Of a stretch of DNA of 64,000 nt, positions 15,929-26,114 are shown piece after piece. Position 1 is the stretch's first letter. Each line of letters opens with the position of its first letter. Origin of the DNA: a candidate division FCPU426 bacterium. Lineage in GTDB: Bacteria > Oederibacteriota > Muellerivitia > Muellerivitales > Muellerivitaceae. The DNA is taken from NCBI GenBank assembly GCA_963847625.1, contig CAWKAR010000024.1, positions 78,219-142,218 on the forward strand, written 5' to 3'. The position numbers and the translations under genes are program-made. The notes under the pieces were generated by a model. It ran no database searches and was not told the DNA's origin. It saw only the letters and a list, made by a program, of their open reading frames with translations.

Positions 15929-17461
15929 ATGTTCACTATCGTCCGTTGCGGAGCGGGTGATCAGGCACCTTTTTTTTGGTTGAACGTCTCTGAACTTAGT
16001 GGAAGGGCGGTGGGTTGGAACTACGACGACCTCTACCGTTTGATCAACGAGACGGTCACAAGTCCAAAACCAGCCGACCCGACGGGAGGGGTGACCTACA
16101 CCTATGACCCCGTGGGGAACCGGCTAACGAGAAATTCGAGTTTAACAGGCATTTCAAACCAAAACCTCGTATATGACGGTACCGGGGATGATCGGATGAC
16201 CTCGGATGGAGCCTCACCCTCGGCAAATTATAGTTACGACCTCAACGGCTCAGTCACCCAGGCCGGGCCTTCAGGGTCTGTGACGGTTTACACCTATGAC
16301 AGCTTGGCCCGGTTGACAAGTGTTACGGCACCGAGCCTAGCGGAAACATTTATCTATGACGGGGATGGAAACAAAGACAGCCAGACTATTAACGGTGTAA
16401 CCACTAATTTCCTGGTCGATACCCATAGCCTGACCGGCTATGCACAAGTGGTAGATGAAATACAAAATGGAAGCGTAACCCGCACCTACACTTATGGAAC
16501 TAGCCGCATTTCTGAAGACCAATTCAATGGAACAAGCTGGAACTTGAGTTACTTCGGCTATGACGGTCAGGGCTCTGTTCGTTATTTAATGGACTCAAAC
16601 GGAAATATAACTGACCAACTGGACTATGATGTCTTTGGAACGCTGATAAATCAAACCCACGTGGGAACACCAACACCAAATGTTTATTTCTATGATGGAG
16701 AACAATTAGACGAGGATACCGGGAACTACTATTTAAGAGCCCGCTGGATGAATCCTGGAATTGGAAGATTTCAGACGATGGACACGTTTGAGGGTGATCC
16801 AAATGATCCTCTGACATTACATAAATATTCCTTTGGCTCTAATAATCCGGAAAATATGATTGATCCAAGTGGTAATGAAGGAGAAGAAGGTAATCCTACA
16901 ATTAATGTCCAATTACCAAAATGGCCTGCTAATGAAGTTTCTAATGTCATGAATGCAGTGGAGGGGATAGGATGGAATAATCAGCAAATTCAAAATTCTC
17001 TTTATAGAGAATGCGGAGATTTTTTATCTGGGGTTGATGACGTATTCCTTGTTTACCTGGATAAAGCTCACGTGGAAATAAACGACCAAAAATGGTCTCG
17101 AAAATACAATCTGCCACTTCCGCCAGTTCAACCTCCTTTTTTAACAGCTGGTCAACAAAAAGAACTTACTGATGATCCAAATGCTATGGACCGATATAAC
17201 AATATAGGTTTGGCTGTGGCACAAGCAAGGCAGGAAGATAGTAATGGATCTGATCCAACATTCAATGCAATCTATTTCCGTGATAGAACCACCTCTAGTA
17301 AAGTTAACACTGTAGATACAGATAAAAATGGGGTACAGCATATAAATAATTATGATGGTTTTTTACACACGCAAAGACATGTTAAAGGGCTAGAAGAAAA
17401 AAAGGTGCTTATACTCACAAATATACAGATATATGGGCTTGCACTTTCGGGAGGCCATTAA
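15929..17461 (+). CDS. Rhs/YD-repeat core with C-terminal toxin domain (N-terminally truncated, orphan module)
   Basis: YD repeats (YTYDPVGNRL), core YYLRARWMNPGIGRFQTMD, PLTLHKY..NNPENMIDPSG cleavage motif; GC drops in the C-terminal domain; homology begins mid-repeat near 15985. Confidence 0.9.
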   Translation: MFTIVRCGAGDQAPFFWLNVSELSGRAVGWNYDDLYRLINETVTSPKPADPTGGVTYTYDPVGNRLTRNSSLTGISNQNLVYDGTGDDRMTSDGASPSANYSYDLNGSVTQAGPSGSVTVYTYDSLARLTSVTAPSLAETFIYDGDGNKDSQTINGVTTNFLVDTHSLTGYAQVVDEIQNGSVTRTYTYGTSRISEDQFNGTSWNLSYFGYDGQGSVRYLMDSNGNITDQLDYDVFGTLINQTHVGTPTPNVYFYDGEQLDEDTGNYYLRARWMNPGIGRFQTMDTFEGDPNDPLTLHKYSFGSNNPENMIDPSGNEGEEGNPTINVQLPKWPANEVSNVMNAVEGIGWNNQQIQNSLYRECGDFLSGVDDVFLVYLDKAHVEINDQKWSRKYNLPLPPVQPPFLTAGQQKELTDDPNAMDRYNNIGLAVAQARQEDSNGSDPTFNAIYFRDRTTSSKVNTVDTDKNGVQHINNYDGFLHTQRHVKGLEEKKVLILTNIQIYGLALSGGH

Positions 17462-18614: not shown

Positions 18615-20318
18615 CCCGGATTTCCCAGATGAAATTACCTTTCGAGTATAATAAGGCGTCGTTTGGCCATACAAACAAAGGTTTTTCTTCACTTTGGGGA
18701 CCACGAGAGGGGGGAATGCAATGGGTGAAAGGGGAAAAGACGCTCTTCGGGTGGTTTTTGATCCTGGTCTCAAGCTGGAGTTCCATGGCGCGAAGGTCAC
18801 TTCCGATGGCGGGTTGATTCCCTATCGTGAACTCGATGAAGCCTTTGGTTTGACTGACAGAACGGAAAACCTTCTGAGGGATCGGCGAACCGGCAAGAAT
18901 ACGCAACATACGATGACGGCGCTTTTGCGGCAATCAATCTACAGCCGCCTAGCCGGTTACGAGGACACCAACGACGCAGAACGATTGAGTGTTGATCCGG
19001 CGATGCGGCATGTGATCGGAGGACGGGCCAAGGAAAAACAAGCTGCCTCCACCAGCCAGATGGGACGTTTCGAGACGGAAGTTCTCACCCAGTCGAAGAA
19101 CCAGACCGGTCTGATTGACCTATCTGGCCAATGGATTGATGGTGTCCATGAAAAAAAGCCCATCCAGCAGATTATTCTCGACATGGACAGCTCCGTGAGT
19201 GAAACCTACGGGGACCAAGAAGGTTCCTTGTACAACGGTTACTTCGGCTGTACCTGTTACCATCCCCTGTTTTGTTTCAACCAGTTTGGCGATTTGGAAC
19301 GGGCAATGTTGCGCAACGGCAATGTGGCCAGCGCCCACGAGTGGCGGTCGGTTCTTGAACCAGTGGTTGTCCGTTATCGGGGTCTTTCCATCAGCCGTTT
19401 TTTCCGGGGTGACGCGGCCTTCGCCCGTCAGGAACTATACGAGTACCTAGAAGACGAAGGATACCTTTATGCGATCCGCCAACCCGCCAATGGCGTGCTA
19501 CAAAGAGAAATTGAGCCATTTTTGACCCGTCCCGTGGGCCGCCCTTCCCACAAGCCGGTTGTCCGGTATCACAGCTTCCAATACCAAGCCGTCAGCTGGG
19601 ACAAACCCCGCCGCGTGGTGGCGAAGATTGAGCATCACAACGGCGAACTTTTCCCGAGGGTGGGTTTCATCGTGACGAACATGCGACGACCGGCACCCCA
19701 GGTGGTGAAGTTCTACAACGGAAGAGGTACGGCTGAGCAATGGATCAAGGAGGGAAAGTACGCGATGAAGTGGACAAGACTAAGCTGCCACGACTTCGCG
19801 GACAACCAAGTAAGGTTGCAACTATTTGCACTGGCTTACAACTTGGGCAACTTCCTTCGCCGTCTAGCCCTGCCAGAACTGGTGAAGCATTGGTCGCTGA
19901 CGACGTTGCGAGAAAAACTTATCAAAATCGGAGCTAACGTTATCCGCCATTCGCGGTACGTGGTTTTCCAGATGGCGGAGGTGATGGTTACCCAACGCCT
20001 GTTTGCTGAAATCCTTGGACGGATAAGGCTACTGGCGATGGTAAGGCCGCGAGCGCCAGTACTGCGATAACCGCAGGAACACTTCATGGCTTCAACCGGA
20101 TCAACCATCGTGGGATAGGTGTGCGTTCACAACGAGAATTGGCTTTCTGGAAGGTCATTTTCAACTTTTTTGGGGCACAGAAACCCTTTTTTGGGCTCAT
20201 TTCGCTGGCCTTGGGCCAGAAAATTCCGGATACGGGTGGAAGAAGCGGGGGGGGGGAATATAATGAGAAACAAATTACCCGGCAATGTTTTCAGAGAAGG
20301 TCATCTGGGAAATTCCGG
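18615..20318 (+). mobile_element. IS1380 family insertion sequence
   Basis: 18-bp IRs CCCGGATTTCCCAGATGA / TCATCTGGGAAATTCCGG (16/18 match); 5-bp target duplication TTAAG at 18610 and 20319. Confidence 0.92.
18721..20070 (+). CDS. IS1380 family DDE transposase
   Basis: TSDGGL, GYEDTNDAERL, LDMDSS, FRGDAAF, YNGRGTAEQWIKEGK. Confidence 0.95.
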   Translation: MGERGKDALRVVFDPGLKLEFHGAKVTSDGGLIPYRELDEAFGLTDRTENLLRDRRTGKNTQHTMTALLRQSIYSRLAGYEDTNDAERLSVDPAMRHVIGGRAKEKQAASTSQMGRFETEVLTQSKNQTGLIDLSGQWIDGVHEKKPIQQIILDMDSSVSETYGDQEGSLYNGYFGCTCYHPLFCFNQFGDLERAMLRNGNVASAHEWRSVLEPVVVRYRGLSISRFFRGDAAFARQELYEYLEDEGYLYAIRQPANGVLQREIEPFLTRPVGRPSHKPVVRYHSFQYQAVSWDKPRRVVAKIEHHNGELFPRVGFIVTNMRRPAPQVVKFYNGRGTAEQWIKEGKYAMKWTRLSCHDFADNQVRLQLFALAYNLGNFLRRLALPELVKHWSLTTLREKLIKIGANVIRHSRYVVFQMAEVMVTQRLFAEILGRIRLLAMVRPRAPVLR

Positions 20319-20328
20319 TTAAGAACGG

Positions 20329-20592
20329 ACAAAGATAGCATGTATGGGCCAGCAACCTACGTAGTAGCTTTGATCAATAGTAGCTGATCAAAATAACGCG
20401 GGTTGCTCCTGGTAAGGAGCCTATCCGCATACGGAGGGCTGACCCATGGGAAATAATAGGAACAAAGATAGCATGTATGGGCCAGCAACCTACGTAGTAG
20501 CTTTGATCAATAGTAGCTGATCAAAATAACGCGGGTTGCTCCTGGTAAGGAGCCTATCCGCATACGGAGGGCTGACCCATGGGAAATAATAG
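20329..20592 (+). repeat. Tandem duplication (133-bp period) of IS110 left end plus target flank
   Basis: 20329..20459 is identical to 20462..20592 (ACAAAGATAGCATG...GGGAAATAATAG). Confidence 0.92.
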
Positions 20593-21685
20593 CACGGTGG
20601 TAGGGCTGGATGTTCATAAGGAAACGATCACGATTGCAGTTTTAAGGCCCGACAAGGATCGTCCTGATCCCTCGGTTACGGTTGAAAATCAGCCATCAAT
20701 CATTGAAAAGAAAGTACGGGAACTTAATCGCCGCCATGCCCCACTGGAATTCGTTTATGAGGCTGGGCCTGGGGGATTTGCTTTGTATAGGCAGATTACC
20801 CAATTGGGACACCCTTGTGCGGTGATTGCGCCCGCATGGATGCCGATGAAACCTGGGGACCGAGTCAAGACGGACCGAAAGGACGCAGAAAAGCTGTCTT
20901 GGTATTGGCGCATGAGGGATTTGAAAGAAGTCCGGGTACCCACGCCCGAAGAAGAATCCGTGAGGGATTTGCTGCGTGTCCGGGAAGATGTTCTCGCAAA
21001 CCAGTTGAGAGCCCGTCATCGGTTATTGAAATTCCTGCTTAGGCAAGGCCGGATTTATCGGGGTGGCAAACACTGGACCCAAGCCCATAGGGAATGGTTG
21101 AGACACCAGAAGTTTGAGCTGCCAAATCTCGTAAAGACCTATGAAGCGAATTACCGAATTTTGGCTGAGATTGACGTGCACTTGGCTGATTTGAATTGTG
21201 AAGTTGAATTGCTGGCACAAGACGAGAAATATCGAATTGCTGTCAGCTATTTGAAATGCCTGAAAGGCGTTAACACACTCACGGCCATGACTTTATTAGC
21301 AGAAAGCGGAGATTTCAGGCGGTTTAAAAACGCCCGCAGTTATATGCGATATACGGGAATGGTCAGTTGGGAAGACAGCACCGGAAGCCATGTTTACCGG
21401 GGCGGGATTGTCAAATCCGGAAATGCCCATTTGAGGCGAGTGCTAGTCCAAGGGGCATGGACCTATCAGCTACGAAGCCTTGGGAGTCCAACACTCGCTA
21501 AACGGAGAAAAGGTTGTCCCCCGGAAGTTATACATTTAGCACGAAAAGCTGATGAACGTTTGCATTTGAAGTTTCGGCGGATGGTAAGCCGAAACAAACG
21601 GTCTCAGGTGGCGGTAGTGGCCATCGCACGGGAATTGGCTGGCTTTATCTGGGCGATTGGACAGATGATCCCATCCGATCAGTAA
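20579..21685 (+). CDS. IS110 family recombinase/transposase (DEDD RuvC + Transposase_20)
   Basis: VGLDVHK, YEAGP, KTDRKDA, GMVSWEDSTG (Ser loop), IVKSGNAHLRR, VAIARELAGFIW. Confidence 0.97.
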   Translation: MGNNSTVVGLDVHKETITIAVLRPDKDRPDPSVTVENQPSIIEKKVRELNRRHAPLEFVYEAGPGGFALYRQITQLGHPCAVIAPAWMPMKPGDRVKTDRKDAEKLSWYWRMRDLKEVRVPTPEEESVRDLLRVREDVLANQLRARHRLLKFLLRQGRIYRGGKHWTQAHREWLRHQKFELPNLVKTYEANYRILAEIDVHLADLNCEVELLAQDEKYRIAVSYLKCLKGVNTLTAMTLLAESGDFRRFKNARSYMRYTGMVSWEDSTGSHVYRGGIVKSGNAHLRRVLVQGAWTYQLRSLGSPTLAKRRKGCPPEVIHLARKADERLHLKFRRMVSRNKRSQVAVVAIARELAGFIWAIGQMIPSDQ

Positions 21686-21711
21686 TAGATCCGATGAGAA
21701 GAAAAAGAAGG

Positions 21712-21920
21712 ACGAGCTCTGATTTCAGGAGCGTGGCGCGGCACGGAGAACCCTCGACGACCCCTTGTGCAATGAAGTCTTATTTCATGACGCACGGACA
21801 AAGATCGAGGCAGCTCCCGACGACAGGTCATCATGCGTCCCTGCCCTTTGGGGTAATACGCGAATATCAGTTTGATCAACCGTCGGAAATGGCTACGCTC
21901 TTGGAATCAGGGCTCTGTCG
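21712..21920 (+). ncRNA. Putative bridge/seek RNA of IS110 copy 1
   Basis: Long closing stem (GAGCTCTGATTTCAGGAGCGTGGC / GCTACGCTCTTGGAATCAGGGCTC, several G-U pairs) enclosing two stem-loops whose internal loops match target and donor sequences; ends approximate. Confidence 0.75.
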
Positions 21921-21980
21921 TGCTGGTCCGTGAAAAGACCAACACCCTAGAATCTGAAGGTTGACTGGCCCATACATATC

Positions 21981-22997
21981 AGGGGTCAGGCCTACAATTT
22001 ACACTTTATAACCACTGATTATTTAATAAAATACCGATATGCCAAGGCCAAAACGGATTCATTATGAAGGGGCCGTGTATCACGTCACTTCCCGCGGGAA
22101 TGAGCGCCGCAAGATAGTGATGGATGACTCGGACCGATGGTTATTCCTGAGAATTCTCGGGGAAATGATCGGGGAAAACGGGATCGTATGCCACGCCTGG
22201 GTTTTAATGGACAATCATTACCATCTTTTACTGGAAACCCCGCAAGCCAATTTATCCGTGGCCATGAAACATCTGAACGCCCAATATACCCAGCGATTCA
22301 ACAAGAAACACCACAGGACTGGTCATTTATTCCAAGGCCGGTATAAGGCCATCGTTATCGAGAAGAACAGTTATTTACAGGAATTATGCCGGTATGTGGT
22401 ATTGAATCCCGTCCGGGCCAAGATGGCCAAGCAACCGGGGGGATGGAAATGGAGCAGTTACCGGGCCACGGCAGGCCTGGAAAGGCCGGAACCATGGTTG
22501 GAGGTGGATTGGATCTTGGGACAATTTGGGAAAGAGAGGAAAAGAGCCCAAAAGGCCTATAGGGAATTTGTGGAAGAGGGAATGGGGAGAAAAGAAACGC
22601 CATGGGAAAGGTTGCATTCCAGGGTTTACCTGGGCGGGAAAGAATTTTTAGACCATGTCCATGAAATGGGACAAAAACACAAACACTTGGATATTCCGAA
22701 ATACCAAAAACATGTGGTGAAACAAAACCCGGAAGCCTTATTAAAAAAGGTGGGGGAAATATACGGTATGAAGCCCGGGGAAATACTGAAAGCGGGGAAA
22801 AGAAGGAGCGAAGCGAGGGAGGCGGCGGTATATTTGCTGAAGAAGGAAGCGGGATTAAGCCTGAGGGAAATAGGGGAAAGAATGGGAGTGGGTTTTTCAG
22901 CGGTGGGGAACCAATGGGCAAAGGTCAAAAAGAAGCTGGGGACGGATAAAAGGTTTGCTCAAAGACTTGTAAAGTGTAAATTGTAGGCCTGACCCCT
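21981..22997 (+). mobile_element. RAYT-like element bounded by perfect 28-bp inverted repeats
   Basis: AGGGGTCAGGCCTACAATTTACACTTTA (21981..22008) and its reverse complement (22970..22997); the gene's stop codon lies inside the right IR. Confidence 0.8.
22039..22986 (+). CDS. REP-associated tyrosine (Y1 HUH) transposase with C-terminal DnaA_C-like HTH
   Basis: YHVTSRGNER, MDNHYHLLL (HUH), GHLFQGRY, YVVLNPVRA, WSSY; C-terminal AAVYLLKKEAGLSLREIGERMG. Confidence 0.9.
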   Translation: MPRPKRIHYEGAVYHVTSRGNERRKIVMDDSDRWLFLRILGEMIGENGIVCHAWVLMDNHYHLLLETPQANLSVAMKHLNAQYTQRFNKKHHRTGHLFQGRYKAIVIEKNSYLQELCRYVVLNPVRAKMAKQPGGWKWSSYRATAGLERPEPWLEVDWILGQFGKERKRAQKAYREFVEEGMGRKETPWERLHSRVYLGGKEFLDHVHEMGQKHKHLDIPKYQKHVVKQNPEALLKKVGEIYGMKPGEILKAGKRRSEAREAAVYLLKKEAGLSLREIGERMGVGFSAVGNQWAKVKKKLGTDKRFAQRLVKCKL

Positions 22998-23057
22998 GAT
23001 ATGTATGGGCCAGTCAACCTTCAGATTCTAGGGTGTTGGTCTTTTCACGGACCAGCA

Positions 23058-23266
23058 CGACAGAGCCCTGATTCCAAGAGCGTAGCCATTTCCGACGGTT
23101 GATCAAACTGATATTCGCGTATTACCCCAAAGGGCAGGGACGCATGATGACCTGTCGTCGGGAGCTGCCTCGATCTTTGTCCGTGCGTCATGAAATAAGA
23201 CTTCATTGCACAAGGGGTCGTCGAGGGTTCTCCGTGCCGCGCCACGCTCCTGAAATCAGAGCTCGT
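23058..23266 (-). ncRNA. Putative bridge/seek RNA of IS110 copy 2
   Basis: Reverse complement of 21712..21920. Confidence 0.72.
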
Positions 23267-23292
23267 CCTTCTTTTTCTTCTCATCGGATCTA

Positions 23293-24399
23293 TTACTGAT
23301 CGGATGGGATCATCTGTCCAATCGCCCAGATAAAGCCAGCCAATTCCCGTGCGATGGCCACTACCGCCACCTGAGACCGTTTGTTTCGGCTTACCATCCG
23401 CCGAAACTTCAAATGCAAACGTTCATCAGCTTTTCGTGCTAAATGTATAACTTCCGGGGGACAACCTTTTCTCCGTTTAGCGAGTGTTGGACTCCCAAGG
23501 CTTCGTAGCTGATAGGTCCATGCCCCTTGGATTAGCACTCGCCTCAAATGGGCATTTCCGGATTTGACAATCCCGCCCCGGTAAACATGGCTTCCGGTGC
23601 TGTCTTCCCAACTGACCATTCCCGTATATCGCATATAACTGCGGGCGTTTTTAAACCGCCTGAAATCTCCGCTTTCTGCTAATAAAGTCATGGCCGTGAG
23701 TGTGTTAACGCCTTTCAGGCATTTCAAATAGCTGACAGCAATTCGATATTTCTCGTCTTGTGCCAGCAATTCAACTTCACAATTCAAATCAGCCAAGTGC
23801 ACGTCAATCTCAGCCAAAATTCGGTAATTCGCTTCATAGGTCTTTACGAGATTTGGCAGCTCAAACTTCTGGTGTCTCAACCATTCCCTATGGGCTTGGG
23901 TCCAGTGTTTGCCACCCCGATAAATCCGGCCTTGCCTAAGCAGGAATTTCAATAACCGATGACGGGCTCTCAACTGGTTTGCGAGAACATCTTCCCGGAC
24001 ACGCAGCAAATCCCTCACGGATTCTTCTTCGGGCGTGGGTACCCGGACTTCTTTCAAATCCCTCATGCGCCAATACCAAGACAGCTTTTCTGCGTCCTTT
24101 CGGTCCGTCTTGACTCGGTCCCCAGGTTTCATCGGCATCCATGCGGGCGCAATCACCGCACAAGGGTGTCCCAATTGGGTAATCTGCCTATACAAAGCAA
24201 ATCCCCCAGGCCCAGCCTCATAAACGAATTCCAGTGGGGCATGGCGGCGATTAAGTTCCCGTACTTTCTTTTCAATGATTGATGGCTGATTTTCAACCGT
24301 AACCGAGGGATCAGGACGATCCTTGTCGGGCCTTAAAACTGCAATCGTGATCGTTTCCTTATGAACATCCAGCCCTACCACCGTGCTATTATTTCCCAT
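23293..24399 (-). CDS. IS110 family recombinase/transposase, copy 2
   Basis: Identical to 20579..21685 except one V>I change (VLVQG vs VLIQG). Confidence 0.97.
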   Translation of the reverse strand: MGNNSTVVGLDVHKETITIAVLRPDKDRPDPSVTVENQPSIIEKKVRELNRRHAPLEFVYEAGPGGFALYRQITQLGHPCAVIAPAWMPMKPGDRVKTDRKDAEKLSWYWRMRDLKEVRVPTPEEESVRDLLRVREDVLANQLRARHRLLKFLLRQGRIYRGGKHWTQAHREWLRHQKFELPNLVKTYEANYRILAEIDVHLADLNCEVELLAQDEKYRIAVSYLKCLKGVNTLTAMTLLAESGDFRRFKNARSYMRYTGMVSWEDSTGSHVYRGGIVKSGNAHLRRVLIQGAWTYQLRSLGSPTLAKRRKGCPPEVIHLARKADERLHLKFRRMVSRNKRSQVAVVAIARELAGFIWAIGQMIPSDQ

Positions 24400-24574
24400 G
24401 GGTCAGCCCTCCGTATGCGGATAGGCTCCTTACCAGGAGCAACCCGCGTTATTTTGATCAGCTACTATTGATCAAAGCTACTACGTAGGTTGCTGGCCCA
24501 TACATGCTATCTTTGTCCCGTGTGAATTGATTACTTAAATATTGGCTTATTTAAACGGCATAAAGAGGTGTTAA

Positions 24575-25612
24575 GTGATAAAAAAATTTTTTATATATAT
24601 AGTTGTTGTTGGCTTTTCGTTACCTGTGCTTGCTGAGTCACCAGTGGCGCCGCCAGATAATGGTCTTCCTCCACTTCAACAATCGAATAACAATTTGACC
24701 TCTGCCCTAGGTAATGATTATTTCCAAAACGTCTATGATGACCTTCCCCCTGCTCAAATAATGGACGCGAGTTTACTTCCAAAACCAACCCCTATAGTTA
24801 CCTATCACAATTATTCTAATGGGAGCAGTATTCCAATTCGTCAACCAACACCCACTTTTTGCCAGGAAATTCAACAAGCCAGAAAAAACGATCCTCATTG
24901 GGTTAGTGATTTTTCAACCGTTATTTCTCATGGAAAGGGGGATTTAATGTTGCGCTCTGATATTTTTTCTTCGGATTTAATAATATTACATCGTCTTTTT
25001 AATGACCCATTAGCTGATGTTTTTATGAAGTTAACTGCTGCCGCAGGAATCGCTGATTTATGGGACCAACTAAATAAAAAACATCCTTCAGATAAAGCCA
25101 GAGCCAATTTTGAGGCTTGGACAAAATATTTCACGCAGTCATGGAATTCGGTAGATATGGGGCAAGCTTGGGACGTAAATGATAAATGTATTGCAACCCG
25201 AAACCTCCTTTATGGGTTGGAAAAGAATCTCAATAGTGATTATGCAAATACCCCGGAAGGTAAAACGGAAGCGAAAAGTAGTCCCCATTGTTACGATCCC
25301 ATTGATTTGATTGCGAAGGGGATGGCCTTGAAAGGGAAATTAGTCTGCGGAAGATTTAGAGTAATCCAAAAAATTGATGAAAAAAGTTACCTTGTAGGAC
25401 TGCCATATACAGGAGAACCGAGTATTGACAATAGCTCATTTGTGGTTTTTGGTAACTCGAAAACGGATAGCGATTTTGATTATTACGATAATGAAATGGT
25501 GAATCTCATAGTTATCGTCGCAGGAACTTATAGCTATCTGACTGTGACCGGAGCCAATGCCACAGTTATTAAACTCAAAGATTGGAAAAAAAATACAGCA
25601 AACAATAACTAA
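24575..25612 (+). CDS. Hypothetical secreted protein (AT-rich)
   Basis: 345-aa ORF, signal peptide, Pro/Thr patches, C-terminal GTYSYLTVTGANATV. Confidence 0.6.
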   Translation: MIKKFFIYIVVVGFSLPVLAESPVAPPDNGLPPLQQSNNNLTSALGNDYFQNVYDDLPPAQIMDASLLPKPTPIVTYHNYSNGSSIPIRQPTPTFCQEIQQARKNDPHWVSDFSTVISHGKGDLMLRSDIFSSDLIILHRLFNDPLADVFMKLTAAAGIADLWDQLNKKHPSDKARANFEAWTKYFTQSWNSVDMGQAWDVNDKCIATRNLLYGLEKNLNSDYANTPEGKTEAKSSPHCYDPIDLIAKGMALKGKLVCGRFRVIQKIDEKSYLVGLPYTGEPSIDNSSFVVFGNSKTDSDFDYYDNEMVNLIVIVAGTYSYLTVTGANATVIKLKDWKKNTANNN

Positions 25613-25635
25613 TTTGTTGGCCCTCACACAAAAAA

Positions 25636-25789
25636 GTCCAGGCCAACATTTGACACTTTACAAAAAAGCTCGCCCCTTAGAAACTTATTTATGCCTTGAC
25701 TCAAGAGAATCCGTTATGAAGGTGCCGTTTACCATGTGACGAATAGGGGTAACGAGCAAAAAATCTTTTGGGATGATACAGATCGGTGA
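25636..25789 (+). pseudogene. Degenerate RAYT element remnant (decayed IR plus 5' gene fragment)
   Basis: GTCCAGGCCAACATTTGACACTTTACAA resembles the RAYT IR; from 25691 reads MP*LKRIRYEGAVYHVTNRGNEQKIFWDDTDR*, versus intact MPRPKRIHYEGAVYHVTSRGNE. Confidence 0.8.
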
Positions 25790-26114
25790 AAAAAGGGGCC
25801 TGGCCAACGCAAAAGGTGCTTGGCACCAAGCTCCTCAGCTTGTTGCAGGGCCCCGCTCCGCATGCAGACCTTCCTTAAACCATTCAAAGAGGTCTGTATA
25901 GTACCGATTTCCATCAATAATCCCGGCCATAGGCCGGGATTAACACATGGATGAATCGGCACAGCGAGTGGCAGTTGAACACTCAACACTTTAAATATTA
26001 ATTAGCTCCTACAATAGAGCTTTAAACATTCGCAAGATAAGTTTTTCCACTTGGAAAGCCTTATCGCGTACTAGAGTTTCAAAAGAGACGTATAAAAGAC
26101 GGGAGGGGAATGAA

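What the first reader, a model, noticed from the sequence alone, without database searches (positions are those of the whole stretch)
21712..21920. IS110 guide RNA readable directly: its loops match the flanking RAYT inverted repeat and the element's own ends
Seen, first stem-loop: stems CCTCGA/TCGAGG and GTGC/GCAC enclose an internal loop with GACCCCT (21759-65) on one side and GGACAAAGA(T) (21796-805) on the other. GACCCCT is the reverse complement of AGGGGTC, the right flank of both IS copies. GGACAAAGAT is the left flank at 20327 (12/12 match as ACGGACAAAGAT) and at 24509-18, with one mismatch at 20460. Seen, second stem-loop (CCGACG/CGTCGG): it carries CATGC (21832-36) and ATATCAG (21864-70), matching the predicted circle junction CATATC-AG-CATG. 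Known: IS110/IS1111 recombinases use bridge/seek RNAs with target- and donor-binding loops around a 2-nt core. Inference: target GGACAAAGAT[AG]GGGTC, donor CATATC[AG]CATG, i.e. a candidate reprogrammable recombinase with an AG/CT core.
Basis: partly seen in the sequence, partly recalled or inferred. Interest (0 to 1): 0.88.

Follow-up and report, generated by a model that had tools for sequence, protein, structure and literature searches.

The report
Guide RNA of an IS1111-type element

Summary
All quoted motifs lie where stated, and the RNA folds into a two-loop structure whose stems covary across homologs. Of two AG dinucleotides at the left junction, the outer one is the core; ATAGC belongs to the element (the 7-bp/3-bp extensions of IS1111-type ends). 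Corrected: target GGACAA[AG]GGGTC, donor CATATC[AG]ATAGCATG. Loop bases track each homolog's own flanks (best column 65 of 68, 18 expected). CATGC is mostly stem and does not covary. The target is the GGGGTCAG end repeat of TIRYT (RAYT-like) genes; nine copies lie in this genome. One oddity: the top-strand guide pairs one base out of family register at a G run. No RNA or activity data. The scan noted similar elements on other DNA. New member of a known kind.

The parts
21739..21890 (+). bridge RNA core: target stem-loop and donor stem-loop; with its long closing stem about 21714-21915. True 5' and 3' ends unknown
   Evidence: fold; covariance model hit (the window copy is in the training set); stem covariation
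21759..21766 (+). target loop, 5' strand GACCCCTT: complementary to the top strand A[AG]GGGTC, one base out of family register
   Evidence: columns 21758-62 complement flank +5..+1 in homologs (37, 43, 52, 59, 65 of 68); own junctions; register test
21796..21803 (+). target loop, 3' strand GGACAA + core AG: same sense as the left flank, pairs with the bottom strand
   Evidence: 21799-801 equal flank -3..-1 in 42, 62, 64 of 68; 7, 8, 9 of 9 own junctions
21804..21805 (+). handshake-type dinucleotide AT: equals the first two bases of the element after the core, not the target
   Evidence: 66 of 68 (37.2 expected) and 41 of 68 (27.3 expected); 3 of 4 discordant pairs at 21804, none informative at 21805; analogy to IS621 positions 81-82
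21864..21870 (+). donor loop, 3' strand ATATC + core AG: same sense as the element's right end
   Evidence: 21866-68 equal end -3..-1 in 60 of 67, 66 of 68, 67 of 68 (38.8-42.5 expected)
   Evidence: weak: 40, 44, 32 of 68 against 34.9, 30.6, 17.9 expected; 0 of 4 discordant pairs
20468..21980 (+). IS copy 1, 1513 bp between the AG cores at 20466-67 and 21981-82
   Evidence: junction tables, homolog ends, empty allele of a sister copy
20579..21685 (+). 368-aa DEDD recombinase (D11, E61, D99, D102; Thr268 in the catalytic-serine column)
   Evidence: PF01548 and PF02371, NF033542, alignment to IS621 and ISCro4, column counts
20473..20485 (+). left subterminal inverted repeat (13 bp), 7 bp inside the end counting the core; -10 box TAGCAT of the circle junction at 20469-74
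21965..21977 (+). right subterminal inverted repeat (13 bp), 3 bp inside the end; -35 box TTGACT at 21961-66
21983..22995 (+). TIRYT/RAYT cassette (gene 22039-22986) bounded by inverted repeats that start GGGTCAGG; both repeats carry an IS copy at their outer tip
   Evidence: cassette of the same length in relatives
22998..24510 (-). IS copy 2, inverted, one base different from copy 1; cores at 24511-12 and 22996-97; bridge RNA 23088-23239
20335..20459 (+). truncated extra left end after GGACAA[AG] (20327-34); real remnant or assembly duplication, not settled
   Evidence: 131-nt direct repeat; no public contig spans it

Best explanation
A 1513-bp IS110-superfamily element of IS1111 architecture (short left end, long right end, 13-bp subterminal inverted repeats with 7- and 3-bp extensions). 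Shown by sequence comparison: its boundaries, the AG core, a conservative insertion into ..CAA[AG]GGGT.., and loop bases that track target and donor in homologs. Inferred from IS621/ISEc11 work: the element forms a circle whose junction CATATC[AG]ATAGCATG builds a TTGACT-17-TAGCAT promoter; the transcript yields the recombinase and the 3' bridge RNA; the first loop opens the target by pairing GGACAA-AG with the bottom strand and GACCCCT(T) with the top strand; the second loop holds the junction by ATATC-AG; strands are exchanged at the core, and the AT at 21804-05 pairs with the incoming donor strand (handshake). Read on the CT strand the layout equals IS621's, with the element reversed. The target is the GGGGTCAG head of TIRYT terminal repeats and related stand-alone repeats.
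For: Empty orthologous allele in G026, 94% over 1389 nt up to the junction, then one AG and the right flank. Outer AG repeated at the right end in 59 of 71 types. Junction promoter in 54 of 65 homologs against 5 of 65. Loop-flank tracking in 68 types, holding in 31 disjoint nearest pairs: RNA matches own DNA in both members in 18 of 21, 15 of 22, 10 of 13, 16 of 18 discordant pairs for +1, +2, -1, -2. A 92%-identical relative has other flanks (CATACC[AG]TATTA) and a rewritten loop; L049 has AA at both cores and AA/TT in all three core-binding places. Stems 95.6% paired, 17 of 22 pairs with double changes. Nine copies at 99.87-100% identity. 7/3-bp extensions and guide order as described for IS1111 (PMC11187229).
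Against: No RNA, circle or activity data for this element. Only one orthologous empty allele was found, from 5 loci each sought in 5 genomes. Distal guide bases match poorly: G at -5 in 3 of 9 and at -6 in 4 of 9 own junctions, and matching sites stay empty (5 ACAAAGGGGTC in the genome). The donor loop's 5' strand shows only weak tracking, and the donor-loop handshake base T21871 does not match this element's target (G), though the column tracks in homologs (33 of 68, 14.7 expected; 6 of 21 pairs). The top-strand guide fits only one base out of register. The alignment was fitted to the structure, so pair counts lean towards it; column tests ignore kinship.
Confidence: 0.9

Rival explanations
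1. One reading: core = the AG next to CATG, target GGACAAAGAT[AG]GGGTC, donor CATATC[AG]CATG, with CATGC as donor guide.
For: 12-nt RNA match to the occupied left junction (0 of 1000 shuffles); AGATAG is invariant at all own left junctions.
Against: Empty allele lacks ATAG; no exact copy of that target in the genome; position not conserved in homologs, 15 of 71; promoter in 5 of 65; CATGC column does not track. PMC11187229 names this error: extension bases taken for target.
Confidence: 0.01
2. The RNA is a target-only seekRNA: the first loop guides insertion, while the ends are recognised mainly by protein through the subterminal repeats, and the second loop is a minor or structural part.
For: In ISEc11, ISPa11 and ISKpn4 the main bound RNA is 82-96 nt with target matches only (PMC11187229); a target-loop-only RNA is 90% of bound RNA in CazIS110-1 (preprint); the donor loop's 5' strand tracks weakly here.
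Against: The donor loop's 3' strand follows the right end base by base (60 of 67, 66 of 68, 67 of 68; 5 of 6 and 5 of 7 discordant pairs) and follows an AA core in L049.
Confidence: 0.07
3. Target choice needs, or comes from, features of the TIRYT repeat beyond RNA pairing (a DNA hairpin or a bound TIRYT protein); the guide match is only part of it.
For: Flank +6/+7 (AG) is kept in 9 of 9 junctions though the guide does not match there; several matching sites are empty; a target stem-loop matters for ISPpu10 (preprint 10.64898/2026.03.19.712850, passages).
Against: The 62 nt right of the two window sites and of C39 fold at only -1.0 to -1.6 kcal/mol; conservation at +6/+7 is expected from the repeat family; the 92% relative moved to a non-repeat site with a rewritten loop.
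Confidence: 0.1

Closest known systems
IS1111-type elements with 3' seekRNA: ISEc11, ISPa11, ISKpn4 (Siddiquee et al. 2024, PMC11187229; read: abstract, introduction, results parts 1-2 and section 13, supplement hits)
   Same: 3' non-coding region; 13-bp subterminal repeats with 7/3-bp extensions; top-strand complement before bottom-strand match; junction promoter; ISPa11 targets REP repeats; natural reprogramming between close relatives.
   Different: 368-aa protein, longer than the 330-350 aa given for classic IS1111 transposases; a clear second loop reading the right end; target is a TIRYT terminal repeat; nothing tested at the bench.
ISSso6 / ISEc45 / ISCARN28 branch (ISCARN28 is one of six predicted bridge RNAs in Durrant et al. 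2024, PMC11208160; read: passages and supplement hits, figures not held)
   Same: 36.2% and 36.8% identical to ISSso6 and ISEc45; the RNA model hits the 3' end of ISSso6 (52 bits) and weakly ISEc45 (18 bits); ISSso6 has the same [AG]+5 nt+ATG..CAT+3 nt+[AG] ends; ISCARN28 shares motifs by eye.
   Different: No named element above 37% was found among 722 plasmid records with a match (all under 60%, names seen for part only); other target; ISCARN28 was not aligned.
IS621 / ISCro4 (IS622) bridge recombinases (PMC11208160, PMC11208158, PMC13626964, 10.1101/2025.05.14.653916; passages read)
   Same: Two internal loops, 2-nt core (CT on the other strand), handshake dinucleotide AU after the 3' target strand pairing with the donor, insertion into repeats.
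   Different: RNA in the left end, no long subterminal repeats, distant protein (E 1e-10 and 6e-7), Ser where this protein aligns Thr268.
[quoted passage not shown]
   Same: An IS1111-type element lodged in the terminal inverted repeats of another element.
   Different: Here the host is a TIRYT (HUH Y1, subclass 2.1 of preprint 10.1101/279083, passages), not a Tn3-family transposon.

Membership tests
IS110 superfamily bridge recombinases | N-terminal DEDD RuvC domain and C-terminal Tnp domain | tested here: met
   PF01548 48.3 bits, PF02371 63.7 bits; NF033542 204.6 bits over a cut-off of 140; D11, E61, D102 in 67 of 67 and D99 in 66 of 67 aligned proteins
IS110 superfamily bridge recombinases | Catalytic serine in the SG motif | tested here: inconclusive
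   Aligns as S267-T268-G269; the column that aligns with IS621's serine is S in 60, T in 7 of 67; TG is listed as a variant in PMC11187229
IS110 superfamily bridge recombinases | Non-coding end folds into two loops whose bases follow target and donor | tested here: met
IS110 superfamily bridge recombinases | Conservative insertion at a short shared core | tested here: met
   one orthologous empty allele; AG at 9 of 9 left and 9 of 9 right junctions
IS110 superfamily bridge recombinases | RNA is made, binds the protein and is needed for movement; circle forms | not testable with these tools
   needs bench work; see Tried and rejected for the read search
IS1111 group | 11-13-bp subterminal inverted repeats, 7 bp from the left and 3 bp from the right end | tested here: met
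   13 bp, 7 and 3 bp; definition
IS1111 group | Long non-coding region downstream of the gene | tested here: met
   about 110 bp upstream against 295 bp downstream
IS1111 group | Top-strand complement lies 5' of the bottom-strand match | tested here: met
   21759-66 before 21796-803
IS1111 group | Promoter formed at the circle junction | tested here: met
   consensus only: TTGACT-17-TAGCAT; 54 of 65 homologs; activity untested
IS1111 group | Transposase related over its full length to that of IS1111 (phylogenetic placement) | not tested
   no classic IS1111 protein was in my tree; length 368 aa is outside the 330-350 aa range; the published trees and Durrant's Supplementary Table 5 could not be seen
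TIRYT (TnpA-REP subclass 2.1), the host of the target | Y1 transposase with C-terminal DnaA-like HTH, flanked by inverted repeats with GGGG[AT][CG]A[CG] | tested here: met
   PF01797 and weak PF08299, NF047646, GGGGTCAG repeats; definition

The most novel reading that the evidence does not exclude
In this branch the cut is fixed by the 3' strand of the target loop alone, and the 5' strand may slide or loop out one base. The 5' strand fits best one base out of register in 7 of 68 types, 6 of them among the 10 whose right flank starts GG, and in at least four places on the tree. If real, natural bridge RNAs tolerate register slips at G runs. That is a design and off-target rule I did not find in print, and this element would be a compact test case, aimed at TIRYT ends.
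Probability: 0.3. Interest if true: 0.45.

Novelty: new member of a known kind. Interest (0 to 1): 0.27.

Why it matters
It adds a recently spreading, fully readable bridge recombinase from a branch for which I found only predicted RNAs. All guide, core and handshake positions are mapped by homolog tracking, with natural cases of target and core reprogramming. The mechanism itself has been known since 2024.

Tried and rejected
Read search: no RNA holder listed; four DNA runs held as contigs showed no joint, so neither a circle junction nor an empty allele, and none spanned the tandem left end. This says nothing on expression. Rfam: no match in 20300-24600 up to E 1. Promoter scan of the linear element: 4 sites against 2.4 expected, none in front of the RNA. 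Orthologous empty alleles: 4 of 5 loci gave none usable (L352 diverges at the junction). A reading with a GG core and one added base was considered for the slipped guide and dropped, since the empty allele is conservative. The search of the phylum (99 genomes) added no homolog to those. The viral pattern scan gave mostly loci without the gene. The careful tree did not finish; a quick tree was used. No earlier finding by place or by sequence. No structure or complex prediction was run; it would not have changed the verdict.

Full report
Observation. The 209-nt stretch folds into a long closing stem and two stem-loops with internal loops, z -5.9, 0 of 200 shuffles as stable. Taken alone, only the 12-nt match to the left junction beats chance (0 of 1000 shuffles); the 7-nt match to the right junction was reached by 205 of 1000, and CATGC occurs in 36% of 2000 shuffles. 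The stretch lies behind a 368-aa IS110-family recombinase. The genome holds 9 full or nearly full copies at 99.87-100% identity, three partial left ends and two copies of a 50%-identical relative.

Where the core is. I collected homologous loci from genomes, metagenomes and viral contigs. Of 279 loci held, 144 had a full-length gene, 107 gave an ATG..CAT subterminal inverted repeat, and these fell into 99 sites and 80 types, 71 with 16-nt flanks. This is the 7-bp/3-bp extension pattern that Siddiquee et al. give for IS1111 elements (PMC11187229, introduction), and they warn that the extension is mistaken for target (section 13). Direct check: of 5 insertion loci, each sought in 5 related genomes, one had an orthologous empty allele (G026, 94% over 1389 nt), reading ..GCAA-AG-GGGTTAGG, one AG and no ATAG. 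Empty repeats in relatives read ..AAAG-GGGTCAGG, none with AGATAG among 27 (13 of these came from loci picked with a pattern that holds AAG, 14 from TIRYT-end loci picked without it). So the target is GGACAA[AG]GGGTC and the donor CATATC[AG]ATAGCATG.

Do the loops follow the flanks? A covariance model from 9 close sequences matched 90 times in 92 loci. The 22 modelled pairs are 95.6% paired, 17 with changes on both sides, above all shuffles and slid controls (the alignment is fitted to this structure). In 68 types with both ends, 8220 column-by-flank tests were run. The best were: 21762, 21761, 21760, 21759 complement flank +1..+4 in 65, 59, 52, 43 of 68 (18-20 expected); 21801, 21800, 21799 equal flank -1..-3 in 64, 62, 42 of 68 (31, 24, 17 expected); 21868, 21867, 21866 equal the last three bases of the right end in 67 of 68, 66 of 68, 60 of 67 (39-43 expected). 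These tests ignore kinship, so I repeated them on 31 disjoint nearest pairs from the 63 rows with an open frame: where the DNA differs, the RNA matches its own DNA in both members in 18 of 21 (+1), 15 of 22 (+2), 11 of 19 (+3), 10 of 13 (-1), 16 of 18 (-2), 7 of 18 (-3) pairs. A 92%-identical element in a genome of the same genus has other flanks and a rewritten loop; an 89% relative keeps both; L049 has an AA core, mirrored in all three core-binding places.

A21804 equals the first element base after the core in 66 of 68 types (37.2 expected) and T21805 the second in 41 of 68 (27.3 expected). In IS621 the two bases after the 3' target strand are handshake guides that pair with the donor after strand exchange (PMC11208158, passages). 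The RNA therefore spells the occupied left junction, not the empty target; this reading is an inference by analogy, and only 4 nearest pairs are informative (3 agree). CATGC is mostly the conserved stem: 21835 matches the base before the inverted repeat in 16 of 68 (16.0 expected) and changes in 0 of 16 discordant pairs. The donor loop's 5' strand is at best ATC(A) at 21830-33, with weak support. Against a tidy picture, the donor-loop handshake column 21871 tracks flank +1 in homologs (33 of 68, 14.7 expected; 6 of 21 pairs) but is T here against G.

The target. All 9 left and 9 right junctions with flank carry AG; the right flank is GGGTCAG in 7 of 9 with single changes in 2; the left flank matches the guide at -1..-4 in 9, 8, 7, 7 of 9 but at -5 and -6 in only 3 and 4 of 9. 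In the window both terminal repeats of one Y1 gene are occupied, in inverted orientation. That gene has a C-terminal DnaA-like HTH and GGGGTCAG repeats, the marks of TIRYT proteins (preprint 10.1101/279083, passages). Matches to the cassette occur in 14 of 30 genomes of the family, many over its whole length. Some matching sites in the genome are empty.

An oddity. In family register this element's 5' target strand has CC opposite the core and matches 3 of 8 positions; moved by one base it matches 7 of 8 against the common flank, as scored for the 89% relative with the same strand. The same shift is best in 7 of 68 types (60 in register, 1 shifted the other way); 6 of the 7 are among the 10 types whose right flank starts GG (Fisher p 1e-5, chosen after the fact, kin not independent). 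A quick tree needs 4 changes of the label. Slippage, a looped-out base, or a guide first written for a GG core would all fit. Where left and right cores differ, the right copy follows the 5' strand (AA in 6 of 6), as expected if the first cut lies as in IS621 (inference). Searches for IS110/IS1111 with RAYT or TIRYT and for bridge RNA with bulge, register or slippage listed no paper on either point; I saw listings only, the library lacks most subscription papers, and the one hit on 'register' concerns a target hairpin. Durrant's figure for ISCARN28, their Supplementary Table 5 and bioRxiv supplements could not be seen and may bear on this branch.

Mechanism and class. Shown: boundaries, core, conservative insertion (one allele), loop-flank tracking. 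Inferred from IS621, ISEc11 and CazIS110-1: circle, junction promoter, RNA binding, strand exchange. Not shown: any RNA or activity. The element meets the end-structure tests of the IS1111 group; placement by protein phylogeny was not tested. The nearest named elements seen are ISSso6 and ISEc45 (36-37%), and ISCARN28 shares motifs by eye. Earlier notes of this scan describe similar elements on other DNA, one inside the repeat of a Y1 gene; I did not check them. Verdict: real, corrected, a new member of a known kind; interest 0.27.

Noticed in passing
window 20327-20471: A truncated left end precedes copy 1 as a 131-nt direct repeat, followed by GAACAA that is not element sequence. Contig C26 ends after a similar length of the left end, so an assembly duplication is possible.
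   Followed up: partly
window 18615-20318: An IS1380-family element (gene 18694-20070, 18-bp inverted repeats) ends 8 bp before the left flank.
   Followed up: no
window 25618-25790: A decayed second TIRYT: a worn copy of the terminal repeat and a short piece 73% like the first 33 residues.
   Followed up: no
L029, L032, L034, L036, L038, L040 (G025): A 53%-identical relative with 6 copies has flanks with group II intron matches in the two loci scanned; its loops match those flanks.
   Followed up: partly
L332 1505-1659 (-), G006: A lone bridge RNA of this type (131 bits) without its gene nearby, cut off just before an empty GAACAA-AG-GGGTCAGG repeat; its 5' target strand has one extra base.
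   Followed up: partly
L130, L097, L147, L009, L008, L149, L051, L146: Homologs whose right core copy is AA or GG while the left is AG; in most the 5' target strand follows the right copy, so donor and target cores need not match.
   Followed up: partly
G001, G016, G026: TIRYT cassettes of about 1015 bp bounded by inverted repeats occur in several copies per genome (7 near-full matches in G001), unlike the single-copy pattern given for RAYTs in the abstract of PMC5581495.
   Followed up: no
G000 C3:32590-34110 and C13:3590-5110 (L044, L045): A second element of the same branch (50% identical) with another target, GTT[AG]CAA, and matching loops.
   Followed up: yes
window 15929-17461: A 510-aa ORF with YD/RHS-like repeats, judged by eye from the translation (label recalled, not scanned).
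   Followed up: no
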